A stretch of 64,000 nucleotides of DNA from Escherichia coli (lineage in GTDB: Bacteria; Pseudomonadota; Gammaproteobacteria; Enterobacterales; Enterobacteriaceae). The position numbers and the translations under genes are program-made. Numbering within the stretch: the stretch's first letter is position 1; each line of letters begins with the position of its first letter. The DNA is taken from assembly GCF_003018235.1 (NCBI RefSeq), contig NZ_CP027437.1, one strand, 5' to 3'. This document shows positions 1,987-3,197 of the stretch, piece after piece. The notes under the pieces were generated by a model, which worked only from the letters and a program-made list of their open reading frames with translations, did no database searches and was not told the origin of the DNA.

Positions 1987-2961
1987 GTAAAATTCCCGTC
2001 ATATGGCACATCATTAAAGGAAATAAATATGTCATCGAAAAACCGGACCCGCAGAACAACAACCCGCAATATCCGTTTCCCGAATCACATGATTGAGCAG
2101 ATCAATATCTGCACTTGAACACAAAGGGGCCGGTAATTTTTCTGCCTGGGTTATTGAAGCCTGTCGCCGGAGACTGACAACAGACAGAAAGACATGCTAA
2201 TCGCGCAACAGTTGCAAAGAATGAGAGGCTCTGACCGTTTTCAATGATGAGGGACATGACGGCTTCTCATTCGGTATTTTTACGCATCAGGATTTCGTGC
2301 ACATCAATGGCAATGCTGTTTTCAATTTTTCTCTCTGGTCAGACTGAAAACAACCGTCGCCGAAGGTGGTGTTATCGCCTCTGTATCAATCCGGACAGAC
2401 AATTGCCCGTCCAGCAATTCACCATTTACAGCAATACCAAAACCTGCGAATAACTCACTTTTATAAATTCGTGCCAGCTGGAATTTCATCTTCTCACATC
2501 TCCATGCGCATGTTTATCTCAGCCACGTAACGCTCCTGCTTGTCGAAAGCCCCGTGGGCACAAACAAAAGAGCAGGATAAAAGACTAAAATAACTCTGGT
2601 ATTACTTATTATTTCACAGACAGTTATTCAATATTTAGCATGAAAGTTTACTATTAGTCATTATTACTTGTGATAACATCTGCCACCACAGGTTGCAACG
2701 GGCGTTACTGTCACTGCGATGTAAAATTACACATCGTGAATATATACATAAATATAATAAAATATTTTAACATTACGGAATATCCGACAAAATGATAACA
2801 ACTTCAGATTAAATCAATTTTATGCATTACGTGAAAAATCAGCACTTATATCAAAATAAACAGATAAATCAGCCAACAAAAATAACGAATTGAACAACAG
2901 CATAAAAATAAGATAAAAATATAAACGCTAAGATAAACCACTCTTCAATTCGTGCCATTTT

Positions 2962-2988
2962 ATGCCGCATATCACCTGCGGCTTTTTT
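2962..2988 (+). terminator. intrinsic terminator-like hairpin plus T7 on + strand
   Basis: GCCGCA-tatcacc-TGCGGC followed by TTTTTTT at the end of a 400-bp AT-rich ORF-free tract. Confidence 0.4.
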
Positions 2989-3197
2989 TATTCCATGTCA
3001 GTACTGAGTGTTCCGGTTTCTTCCACCATCGCACCGGACAGGCGACCATGTGGGTGCAGTCCGCGTCCTGTTTACGCGGCAAAACCCGGTGTGCATCGTT
3101 TCTGATTATTCCCGCACACTCGCGCAGAGGATTCTCCCCGTCGGGCTGCGGTCTCTGTTAATGCGGGAATACGGCGACGATACGGCGCATGGTTATG

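What the first reader, a model, noticed from the sequence alone, without database searches (positions are those of the whole stretch)
2520..2990. ORF-free AT-rich tract ending in a + strand terminator, antisense to the late operon
About 400 bp of very AT-rich DNA (2580-2950) ends in a perfect GCCGCA/TGCGGC hairpin plus T7 on the + strand, although all neighbouring genes are on the minus strand. A second orphan + strand terminator is at 6841-6878. These may mark antisense or small-RNA transcription units or insulate late genes from read-in. A 55-codon minus-strand ORF (2322-2489) with a GGAG RBS lies next to the tract.
Basis: seen in the sequence. Interest (0 to 1): 0.3.

Follow-up and report, generated by a model that had tools for sequence, protein, structure and literature searches.

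The report
Candidate prophage small RNA gene
The AT-rich gap in this E. coli prophage ends in a ~115-bp unit (promoter-like block, invariant 13-base stretch, terminator) that recurs in other prophages and looks like an undescribed, untested small regulatory RNA gene of a type already known from such phages.

Summary
Window 2560-2960 is the most AT-rich stretch of the 64 kb (GC 0.28 vs 0.50). It has no credible ORF and ends in a perfect GCCGCA/TGCGGC hairpin plus T7 on the + strand (2964-2989), inside a minus-strand late operon of a lambdoid E. coli prophage.

The tract is composite.
- About 310 bp (2560-2872) is lineage-specific non-coding filler, found in 3 of 5,426 E. coli genomes and one metagenome contig.
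- The last ~115 bp (2873-2990) is a module found at 27 places in 22 genomes, 2 plasmids and phage contigs. It always lies between the lysis genes and the packaging genes, with unrelated flanks.

Its conservation pattern fits a 50-66 nt + strand Hfq-type sRNA: TTGAnn -35-like, nATAAA -10-like, a variable A-rich 5' part with indels, invariant unpaired ATTCGTGCCATTT, then hairpin and U-run. The overlapping minus-strand ORF is not coding-like. The module is a paralogue of the antisense 5' end of a phrog_10235 late gene; an intact copy (ORF55) lies 480 bp away.

The second terminator (6841-6880) belongs to a similar conserved unit at the position where PasA/PasC sRNAs lie, but it is not homologous to them.

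Expression is untested and the promoter match is weak. Verdict: a probable new member of a known kind; modest interest.

The parts
2560..2872 (.). Lineage-specific AT-rich non-coding filler (GC ~0.28)
   Evidence: Found only in 3 of 5,426 E. coli genomes plus metagenome contig L045. There are 6-11 stops in every frame, and no similarity to the ORF55 gene body or to anything else fetched. Identity to L045 is 85-87%. STEC299 has a 5-bp indel inside the longest (41-aa) ORF.
2873..2990 (+). Conserved module: the candidate small-RNA transcription unit
   Evidence: 27 places in 22 of 5,426 E. coli genomes, 2 plasmids, 4 IMG/VR contigs and 4 metagenome contigs. It always lies between the lysis genes and the packaging genes, and its flanks cannot be aligned. 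Model R1 scores it 103.8 bits and finds no second copy in the window.
2890..2895 (+). -35-like hexamer TTGAAC (TTGATT in the other lineages)
   Evidence: TTGA is invariant in all 16 distinct variants. That it is a promoter element is inferred, not shown.
2912..2917 (+). -10-like hexamer GATAAA (TATAAA in the A8 type), 16 nt after the -35-like hexamer
   Evidence: ATAA is invariant. It lacks the consensus final T, so the consensus scan does not call it. An alternative -10 is TAAGAT at 2929-2934, where A at position 2 and T at position 6 are kept in all lineages.
2924..2947 (+). Variable, A-rich 5' part of the putative RNA
   Evidence: Substitutions and non-triplet indels are concentrated here: 11 of 37 columns are invariant. 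Its length stays within 29-31 nt, counted from the -10-like hexamer to the core.
2948..2960 (+). Invariant core ATTCGTGCCATTT (putative seed plus U-rich Hfq-type spacer)
   Evidence: Only one substitution (C to T in A34) occurs across 13 distinct sequences. The core is unpaired, or only weakly paired, in the folds of the lineages.
2961..2963 (+). The three variable core bases (TAT / CAT / TCC), which are the ancestral start codon of the minus-strand gene stub
   Evidence: These bases align with ORF55's ATG in the paralogue alignment. The ATG is kept only in the M3 and A34 lineages and is lost in the window type, the plasmid type and the A8 type.
2964..2989 (+). Intrinsic terminator: GCCGCA / 7-nt loop / TGCGGC plus T7
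   Evidence: Both stem arms are invariant in every copy, while the loop length varies from 7 to 9 nt.
2869..2970 (-). 33-codon minus-strand ORF (MRHKMARIEEW...), judged non-coding
   Evidence: Copies that are ~96% identical differ by non-triplet indels. The C-termini are unrelated. The only change in 'MARI' is non-synonymous. There are no Pfam or NCBIfam matches.
2466..2476 (+). Second copy of the 11-mer AATTCGTGCCA, antisense to codons 5-8 of ORF55
   Evidence: The 11-mer occurs exactly twice in the 64 kb against 0.05 expected by chance. It is part of a ~90-nt paralogous alignment.
2322..2489 (-). ORF55: a truncated phrog_10235 late gene whose 5' end is the paralogue of the module
   Evidence: PHROG E = 1.6e-18. 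Homologues of 82 aa in L045 and 104 aa in Klebsiella phage KpF5 lie directly upstream of HNH and terS.
2998..3105 (+). 3' remnant of a DUF1398 (ybcV-like) gene
   Evidence: tblastn: 35 aa, 86% identity, E = 1e-19. About 680 bp is deleted relative to the A8-type arrangement.
6796..6884 (+). Second candidate small-RNA unit (terminator stem 6841-6848 / 6864-6871, T8 at 6873-6880; TTGACC at 6764-6769 lies upstream)
   Evidence: Conserved in 5 genomes (8 places) and unannotated. The alignment shows one compensatory U-A to C-G stem change. Model R2 finds three tandem copies in L045. The position matches that of PasA, but there is no sequence or model similarity to PasA, PasB or PasC.

Best explanation
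Window 2873-2990 is a small autonomous + strand gene for a short non-coding RNA. The RNA would be about 66 nt if it starts near 2924, or about 49 nt if it starts near 2941. It lies antisense to the phage late operon, in the accessory ('moron') slot between the lysis genes and the packaging genes.

Inferred mechanism:
- A weak sigma-70-type promoter (TTGAnn, 16 nt, nATAAA) fires in the lysogen.
- Transcription stops at the GCCGCA/TGCGGC plus U7 terminator.
- The product has the layout of an Hfq-dependent sRNA: an A-rich variable 5' end, an unpaired invariant 13-nt stretch (AUUCGUGCCAUUU) that would act as the base-pairing seed, a U-rich spacer, a GC hairpin and a poly-U tail.

The gene arose on the antisense strand of a truncated 5' copy of a phrog_10235 late gene. 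It therefore still pairs imperfectly with the start region of intact copies such as ORF55, 480 bp away. It is also perfectly complementary to the late mRNA that crosses it.

The other ~310 bp of the AT-rich tract is non-coding filler specific to this lineage.

Shown: the anatomy, the distribution, the uneven conservation, the non-coding behaviour of the overlapping ORF, and the paralogy. Inferred: transcription, promoter use, Hfq dependence and targets.
For: (1) The module recurs with unrelated flanks at 27 places in 22 E. coli genomes, on 2 plasmids and in phage and metagenome contigs. It always lies between the lysis side (Rz, Rha or DUF1398) and the small terminase gene, and that gene is of four different annotated types.

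(2) Conservation is strongly uneven in the way expected of an sRNA. In the 3' part 35 of 42 columns are invariant, against 11 of 37 in the 5' part (Fisher p = 2.7e-6).

(3) Between the window and L045, the stretch 2926-2990 is 98.5% identical. The neighbouring genuine coding gene is 80% identical and the filler 85-87%.

(4) The folds of the lineages show the -10 kcal/mol hairpin, with the invariant stretch unpaired or only weakly paired.

(5) TTGA and ATAA are invariant at a 16-nt spacing, and the distance from the -10-like block to the core stays at 29-31 nt despite indels.

(6) In the A8 and M3 contexts no + strand gene lies upstream of the terminator, so any transcript it ends must start within or just left of the module.

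(7) The minus-strand ORF fails as a gene. It has frame-changing indels between near-identical copies, and the ancestral start codon is the only variable spot in the core.

(8) There is direct precedent. Tree et al. describe 51-60 nt prophage sRNAs antisense to late genes in moron slots, with a conserved ~42-nt 3' region and a variable 5' end (PMC4104026). PasA/PasC are Hfq-dependent, validated by Northern blot, and lie antisense between the esterase and the holin (PMC8550237).
Against: No expression data exist for any strain that carries the element.

The promoter match is weak: 8-9 of 12 consensus positions and no T at the last -10 position. The consensus scan does not call it.

The hairpin stem is invariant, so covariation gives no support for it.

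Rfam has no related family; the best match is a sub-threshold CyaR hit of 17.9 bits against a gathering score of 47.

The family is small and restricted to E. coli. No copy was found in 100,044 species-representative genomes, so its conservation may partly reflect recent shared ancestry and recombination among lambdoid phages.

Pairing with ORF55 mRNA is only modestly better than chance (-24.6 kcal/mol; 16 of 1000 shuffles do as well). It is not maintained in L045 (-18.9; 148 of 1000) or with the KpF5 homologue (-13.7).
Confidence: 0.5

Rival explanations
1. The module is a recombination scar plus a terminator. It is the leftover 5' stub of a phrog_10235 gene, left behind when packaging modules were swapped between lambdoid phages. 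Only its hairpin and T-run do anything. They act as a one-way + strand terminator that stops stray antisense transcription, for example from the YlcI/YnfO promoter or from the AT-rich DNA itself, before it enters DUF1398 or runs antisense into the lysis genes. No discrete regulatory RNA is made.
For: The module is demonstrably homologous to the 5' end and leader of ORF55. The alignments span ~90 nt and beat all shuffles for A8 (42 vs a null maximum of 40) and M3 (38 vs 37). It sits exactly at mosaic junctions where the flanks change. In the window, a + strand YlcI/YnfO pseudogene lies upstream, and no other + strand terminator was found between it and 2964. The promoter match is weak.
Against: A terminator does not need the 13 invariant bases upstream of the hairpin, nor the invariant TTGA/ATAA blocks ~55-75 bp upstream. 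Neutral decay of a stub would not leave 35 of 42 columns invariant while the adjacent 37 columns vary and accumulate indels. In the A8 and M3 contexts there is no + strand gene upstream to terminate. KpF5's intact homologue has no such hairpin, so the hairpin is not simply inherited leader sequence.
Confidence: 0.27
2. The functional product is on the minus strand. A short hydrophobic peptide (MRHK-MARIEEW...; 18-34 aa) is translated from the late mRNA. The + strand RNA is its cis-antisense regulator, as in a type I toxin-antitoxin pair such as Ibs/Sib.
For: Every lineage keeps an ORF of 18-30 codons that starts at ATGGCA, with an in-frame upstream ATG, and the peptides are mostly hydrophobic. 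The putative + strand RNA overlaps the start region, which is the classic type I geometry. The hairpin places an SD-like GGTG(A/G)T in its loop on the minus strand.
Against: Copies ~96% identical (L006 vs L016) differ by non-triplet indels, giving unrelated C-termini. The only change in 'MARI' is non-synonymous, and no synonymous variation is seen. The hydrophobicity follows from T-richness in any frame. The ancestral start with good SD spacing (ATG-AAA) is lost in 3 of 5 lineages. The flanks upstream on the minus strand are unrelated between lineages, so the module carries no conserved minus-strand promoter. There is no match to any small-toxin family in Pfam or NCBIfam.
Confidence: 0.06
3. 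The AT-rich tract as a whole is the functional unit at the DNA level. It could be a packaging-related bending or IHF region near cos, an H-NS-silenced foreign insertion, or a promoter region for the packaging genes downstream on the minus strand.
For: It is the most AT-rich stretch in the window. It lies ~600-1,300 bp upstream of HNH and terS. It is somewhat better conserved against L045 (85-87%) than the neighbouring coding sequence (80%).
Against: The filler is absent from all but 3 E. coli genomes and one contig, so the many phages with the same packaging genes do without it. In HNH-type phages cos is expected between HNH and terS, where the window has a separate GC dip at about 1400-1600 (the cos position rests on established knowledge of HK97-like phages). 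No repeats or tandem structure were found. H-NS binding cannot be tested here.
Confidence: 0.1

Closest known systems
AsxR / AgvB 'anti-sRNAs' (EcOnc01-03) of EHEC lambdoid prophages (Tree et al. 2014, PMC4104026; Rfam RF02702, RF02703)
   Same: They are very short (51-60 nt) and are encoded antisense to the Q-dependent late transcript in a moron slot. They have their own promoter and intrinsic terminator. They occur in several diverged copies per genome. Their 3' region (~42 nt) is conserved and their 5' end is variable. All of this matches the module's pattern.
   Different: There is no sequence or covariance-model similarity: Rfam gives no hit at gathering score in the window, and none up to E = 10 in 2200-3300. 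They occupy a different slot (downstream of PR'/stx rather than lysis-to-terminase). Their variable 5' end is the functional part (it mimics sRNA targets), whereas here the invariant part lies next to the terminator. Hfq binding and function have been shown for them and not for this element.
PasA / PasC (= EcOnc51/52) and PasB of EPEC E2348/69 (Pearl Mizrahi et al. 2021, PMC8550237; Zhu, Shabalina & Storz 2026 preprint, doi 10.64898/2026.05.13.724894)
   Same: They are ~80-nt Hfq-dependent sRNAs lying antisense to late or structural genes in intergenic gaps of lambdoid prophages. Each ends in a stem-loop plus poly-U. For PasB the seed is proposed to lie in the single-stranded stretch just upstream of the terminator. 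PasA lies between the SASA esterase and the holin, exactly the position of the window's second unit at 6796-6884.
   Different: Local alignment and model R2 find nothing beyond the generic terminator tail. Neither window element is a Pas homologue. The Pas sRNAs are common (1,362 genomes in the preprint), whereas these two elements occur in 22 and 5 of 5,426 genomes.
OOP RNA of phage lambda (from my own knowledge; not tested here)
   Same: It is a 77-nt phage RNA with its own promoter and intrinsic terminator. It is transcribed against the flow of a phage operon and acts through complementarity to the overlapping mRNA, which leads to RNase III cleavage.
   Different: OOP overlaps the 3' end of cII in the early region. 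There is no sequence relationship. Whether the present RNA acts in cis on the late mRNA is unknown.
Type I toxin-antitoxin pairs (Ibs/Sib, Hok/Sok)
   Same: A short hydrophobic ORF is overlapped at its start by a terminator-ended antisense RNA.
   Different: The ORF here is not conserved as a protein and matches no toxin family. No dedicated toxin promoter is conserved.

Membership tests
Hfq-dependent trans-acting sRNA (general class) | Rho-independent terminator with a poly-U tail of at least ~6 U | tested here: met
   A 6-bp GC stem, a 7-nt loop and U7, folding at -10.1 kcal/mol. Chromosomal copies have 6-8 U. The plasmid copies have a weaker CUUUUUG tail.
Hfq-dependent trans-acting sRNA (general class) | U-rich stretch immediately upstream of the terminator hairpin (the Hfq-binding module described by Ishikawa et al. 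2012) | tested here: met
   CAUUUUAU, CAUUUCAU or CAUUUUCC precedes the stem in all lineages.
Hfq-dependent trans-acting sRNA (general class) | Conserved single-stranded seed region | tested here: met
   AUUCGUGCCAUUU has one substitution in 13 distinct sequences, and it is unpaired or only weakly paired in the folds of the lineages.
Hfq-dependent trans-acting sRNA (general class) | Own promoter and a discrete transcript | tested here: inconclusive
   Conserved TTGAnn, 16 nt, nATAAA blocks are present, but they match only 8-9 of 12 consensus positions and lack the final T. The consensus scan does not call them. No RNA data are available.
Hfq-dependent trans-acting sRNA (general class) | Hfq binding or Hfq-dependent stability, and identified targets | not testable with these tools
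   This needs Hfq co-immunoprecipitation, CLIP or RIL-seq in a strain that carries the element.
AsxR/AgvB anti-sRNA family (Rfam RF02702, RF02703) | Match to the family covariance model | tested here: not met
   There is no hit in the window at gathering score, and none up to E = 10 in 2200-3300.
PasA/PasC and PasB sRNA families | Sequence homology to the E2348/69 genes | tested here: not met
   Local alignment scores lie within the shuffle range except for the terminator tail. Model R2 gives E = 0.12-1.4 at the Pas loci, and model R1 finds nothing there.
PasA/PasC and PasB sRNA families | Position antisense between the esterase and the holin-side genes (applies to site 2 only) | tested here: met
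   Site 2 lies between DUF6645/SASA esterase (6885-8924, -) and DUF1378 (6566-6748, -). PasA lies between the SASA esterase and the holin.
Type I toxin-antitoxin system | Small toxin ORF conserved as a protein | tested here: not met
   Frame-shifting indels occur between near-identical copies and the C-termini are unrelated. There is no family match.
Type I toxin-antitoxin system | Antisense RNA overlapping the toxin's translation start | tested here: inconclusive
   The geometry is present, but neither transcript has been demonstrated.
phrog_10235 phage protein family (applies to ORF55, the neighbouring gene) | Profile match | tested here: met
   E = 1.6e-18 for ORF55, 2.8e-21 for the L045 homologue and 2.2e-32 for the KpF5 homologue.

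The most novel reading that the evidence does not exclude
The module is an sRNA gene that was born on the antisense strand of a decapitated late gene. It is kept because it still base-pairs with the translation start region (codons 5-18) of intact phrog_10235 genes, which sit directly upstream of the HNH endonuclease and terminase in HNH-type phages. A prophage carrying it would then do one of two things: throttle its own packaging-module gene, or silence that gene in a competing, superinfecting HNH-type phage. The second case would apply to the A8- and M3-type prophages, which use other terminase types and in whose examined loci no phrog_10235 gene is annotated. That would be an RNA-based form of inter-phage interference.
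Probability: 0.08. Interest if true: 0.7.

Novelty: new member of a known kind. Interest (0 to 1): 0.33.

Why it matters
If transcribed, this would add an unannotated sRNA family, plus a second one at 6796-6884, to the growing set of prophage-encoded regulators in E. coli. It would also extend their known locations to the lysis-to-packaging junction.

It would give an unusually clear case of how such a gene originates. The antisense strand of a truncated gene start acquires a terminator and a promoter while the coding strand decays.

In practice it shows that 'empty' AT-rich gaps in prophage late operons can hide conserved ~100-bp units that gene callers and Rfam both miss.

Its rarity (22 of 5,426 genomes, many from rodents and other animals) and the lack of any functional data keep its importance modest.

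Tried and rejected
- Rfam, at gathering and permissive thresholds: nothing relevant. The 17.9-bit CyaR and 22.4-bit Arrc14 hits are far below their thresholds.
- Homology to PasA, PasB or PasC: rejected.
- Minus-strand small protein or type I toxin: rejected as the main reading.
- YbcW, which fills the equivalent slot in K-12 DLP12, as a relative of ORF55 or of the stub: no similarity; it belongs to a different PHROG.
- An antisense terminator as a general feature of phrog_10235 genes: not present in KpF5.
- The AT-rich filler as a decayed continuation of the gene copy: no similarity above shuffles.
- Repeats or tandem structure in the tract: only short pairs at chance level. One 10-nt inverted pair (2885-2894 / 2944-2953) is built on the self-complementary AATT core, and I do not rely on it.
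- A wider host range: none in 100,044 representative genomes. Of the viral-contig pattern hits, 20 of 24 were chance matches inside unrelated coding sequence.
- Protein searches for ORF55 relatives: only its own E. coli clusters, no viral contigs, and two phages by tblastn.
- A same-slot precedent among the EcOnc sRNAs: EcOnc35 in Sp4 turned out to lie next to the holin in a rearranged prophage, not in the lysis-to-terminase slot. I did not check the catalogue exhaustively.
- Genome-wide target prediction for the seed: not possible, because no whole genome is available to the scripting tool.
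Full report
**Context**

The window is a lambdoid E. coli prophage. The best match is 99.9% identity to O158:H23 strain CFIAFB20140388. The late genes run on the minus strand. In late-sense order the annotation gives:
- DUF6645/SASA-type esterase, 8924-6885
- DUF1378
- DUF826
- holin
- lysozyme
- Rz
- Rha, 3815-3198
- the tract in question
- a 55-codon gene, 2489-2322
- a frameshifted YlcI/YnfO gene on the + strand, about 2029-2234
- HNH endonuclease, 1986-1621
- small terminase

. The tract therefore sits in the accessory-gene slot between the lysis cassette and the packaging genes.

**Checking the observation**

- GC is 0.278 over 2580-2950 against 0.500 for the window. 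This is the most AT-rich 371-nt stretch in the 64 kb.
- The hairpin GCCGCA / TATCACC / TGCGGC (2964-2982) is followed by T7 (2983-2989) on the + strand. It folds at -10.1 kcal/mol.
- On the other strand the hairpin is followed by ATAAAATGG, so it terminates in one direction only.
- Every frame of 2560-2905 has 6-11 stops.

Two corrections are needed. First, + strand gene remnants flank the tract on both sides: YlcI/YnfO on the left, and the last 35 codons of a DUF1398 gene at 2998-3105 on the right (E = 1e-19). Second, a hairpin plus T-run on its own is not beyond chance (9 found against 5.6 +/- 2.6 expected in 6 kb). What makes it real is conservation.

**The tract is two things**

The whole tract occurs in only 3 of 5,426 complete E. 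coli genomes. It is absent from the phage collection, and the plasmid collection holds only a module copy. It also occurs in one metagenome contig, L045.

Its last ~115 bp (about 2873-2990) is different. That part recurs at 72-88% identity at 27 places in 22 genomes, on two plasmids among prophage debris, and in IMG/VR and metagenome contigs. No record annotates it.

There are five lineages: the window type, A34, the A8 type, a plasmid type and the M3 type. The window's own genome has three copies in different prophages.

In every chromosomal case the module lies between the lysis side (Rz, Rha or a + strand DUF1398 gene) and the small terminase gene. That gene is annotated as one of four different types, and the flanks on both sides cannot be aligned between lineages. 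None of 100,044 species-representative genomes has the module.

The remaining ~310 bp (2560-2872) matches nothing else. It has no repeats, is not a decayed continuation of the neighbouring gene family, and STEC299 has a 5-bp indel inside its longest ORF. I treat it as lineage-specific non-coding filler.

**Anatomy of the module**

Aligning 13-16 distinct variants gives the following order on the + strand:
- TTGATT (TTGAAC in the window, 2890-2895); TTGA is invariant.
- 16 nt further on, GATAAA or TATAAA (2912-2917); ATAA is invariant.
- An A-rich stretch that varies by substitutions and non-triplet indels but keeps a total length of 29-31 nt.
- ATTCGTGCCATTT (2948-2960), with one substitution in the whole family.
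- Three variable bases (2961-2963).
- The hairpin, with both arms invariant and the loop 7-9 nt.
- Five to eight T.

The unevenness is significant. In the 3' part 35 of 42 columns are invariant, against 11 of 37 in the 5' part (Fisher p = 2.7e-6). Between the window and L045, 2926-2990 is 98.5% identical, against 80% for the adjacent genuine gene and 85-87% for the filler.

The RNA folds of the lineages show the terminator hairpin, and the invariant stretch is unpaired or only weakly paired.

This is the layout of a short Hfq-type sRNA: a variable 5' end, a single-stranded conserved seed, a U-rich spacer, a GC hairpin and a U-tail.

**The overlapping minus-strand ORF**

In fact a 33-codon ORF (2970-2869, MRHKMARIEEWFILAF...) overlaps the module, and every lineage has an ORF of 18-30 codons starting at the same ATGGCA. 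I tested this seriously because it would suggest a type I toxin-antitoxin pair. It fails.
- Copies ~96% identical differ by 2-nt indels that give unrelated C-termini.
- The only change in the shared 'MARI' is non-synonymous.
- The hydrophobicity follows from T-richness.
- Nothing matches in Pfam or NCBIfam.

**Origin**

The 11-mer AATTCGTGCCA occurs exactly twice in the window against 0.05 expected. One copy is in the module core and the other is at 2466-2476, antisense to codons 5-8 of the neighbouring 55-codon gene.

This is not just a seed match. Alignments between that gene's 5' end plus leader and the module lineages run for ~90 nt, and they beat all shuffles for A8 and M3.

On the minus strand, the M3 and A34 modules still read SD (AGGTGG), 7 nt, then ATG-AAA, like the gene's own start, followed by a 7-nt deletion. 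The three variable bases of the core are exactly that ancestral start codon, which has been lost in three of the five lineages.

The gene (ORF55) belongs to phrog_10235. Its 104-aa homologue in Klebsiella phage KpF5 sits directly upstream of HNH and the terminase, and it has no antisense hairpin.

So the module is a truncated paralogue of a late-gene start. Its coding strand has decayed while the opposite strand carries the conserved features.

**Mechanism**

The best-supported reading is a small + strand transcription unit making an RNA of ~50-66 nt that ends at 2989. It would be expressed against the flow of the late operon. This is the pattern described for AsxR/AgvB, which are 51-60 nt, antisense in moron slots, and have a conserved 3' region with a variable 5' end (PMC4104026). 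It is also the pattern of PasA/PasC/PasB (PMC8550237; 2026 preprint).

How the RNA would act is inferred only. Three routes are open:
- The invariant stretch could pair with trans targets.
- The RNA is automatically complementary to the late mRNA that crosses it.
- Because of its origin, it pairs imperfectly with the start region of ORF55. The duplex is -24.6 kcal/mol over nt +12 to +54, and 16 of 1000 shuffles do as well.

That last pairing weakens in L045 and is absent for KpF5, so it is not clearly under selection.

The main weakness of the whole reading is the promoter. The conserved blocks match only 8-9 of 12 consensus positions and lack the final T of the -10 hexamer, and no expression data exist.

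**The main rival**

The module could be a recombination scar in which only the terminator matters. That explains its position at mosaic junctions and its homology to ORF55. It does not explain the invariant 13 nt or the invariant upstream blocks. It also does not explain the A8 and M3 contexts, where nothing on the + strand lies upstream to be terminated.

**The second terminator**

The stretch 6796-6884 behaves the same way. It is conserved in 5 genomes and is never annotated. Upstream it has a TTGACC...TAGAAA block, then a conserved stretch (UAUCCAUCRUUUGAC), then an 8-bp stem with one compensatory U-A to C-G change, then T8.

It lies between the esterase and DUF1378, on the holin side. That is where PasA lies in E2348/69 (743499-743415, minus strand, antisense to the late genes). 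It shares no sequence or covariance-model similarity with PasA, PasB or PasC.

L045 carries three tandem copies of it that become progressively more diverged.

**Verdict**

The real feature is a ~115-bp conserved module, probably an undescribed prophage sRNA gene that originated antisense to a gene stub. It is embedded in lineage-specific AT-rich filler.

It is a new member of a known kind. It is interesting mainly for its clear origin and as a candidate for experiment.

Noticed in passing
window 9609-13347 (-) and 13426-13637 (-): A group II intron lies on the minus strand (Rfam domains at 9609-9681, 13062-13137 and 13178-13347). Its 5' end is about 80 nt downstream of the 3' end of an STnc100 sRNA gene (134 bits), which the 2026 preprint relates to PasD. 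The intron therefore appears to have inserted just behind an sRNA terminator, between that sRNA and the esterase gene.
   Followed up: no
window 19942-20130 (-): A C4 antisense RNA (82 bits) and an isrK Hfq-binding RNA (64 bits) lie side by side. This pairing is typical of a P1/P7-like immunity or anti-repressor region.
   Followed up: no
window 33053-33375 (+); 14262-14416 (-): Three tandem tRNA-Leu(CAG) genes, which look like the host leuQPV cluster, suggest that the window runs out of the prophage into the chromosome. tRNA-Lys(UUU) and tRNA-Met(CAU) lie inside the prophage, downstream of STnc100.
   Followed up: no
window ~27320-28450, ~35890-36590, ~8880-9330: Three other strongly AT-rich stretches (minimum GC 0.29, 0.30 and 0.32 in 371-nt windows). 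They were not examined. The first also gave weak sub-threshold hits to both RNA models near 27418-27483.
   Followed up: no
L045 9237-9326, 9473-9550, 9805-9889 (+): Metagenome contig L045 carries three tandem, progressively diverged copies of the site-2 element (90.6, 45.8 and 24 bits with model R2). This suggests that the element duplicates locally.
   Followed up: partly
window 2322-2489 (-); L045 5252-5500 (-); L047 2501-2815 (+): ORF55 is a truncated member of phrog_10235. It is 55 aa, against 82 aa in L045 and 104 aa in Klebsiella phage KpF5. In KpF5 the gene is the immediate upstream neighbour of the HNH endonuclease and the small terminase, which suggests an uncharacterised role linked to packaging.
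   Followed up: partly
L005 (pCRST010) 3001-3083 and L038 (pSCU-111-1) 2501-2610: Copies of the module sit on two large plasmids among IS elements, DUF1378 fragments and toxin-antitoxin genes, so pieces of prophage late regions have been carried onto plasmids. These copies have a weakened U-tail (CUUUUUG).
   Followed up: partly
window 2998-3105 (+) versus L004 3109-3789: Relative to the A8-type arrangement, about 680 bp is deleted in the window immediately after the terminator T-run. The deletion removes the promoter and most of the DUF1398 (ybcV-like) gene. The same right-hand junction is found next to M3-type modules (L031, L033), which implies recombination within or at the module.
   Followed up: partly
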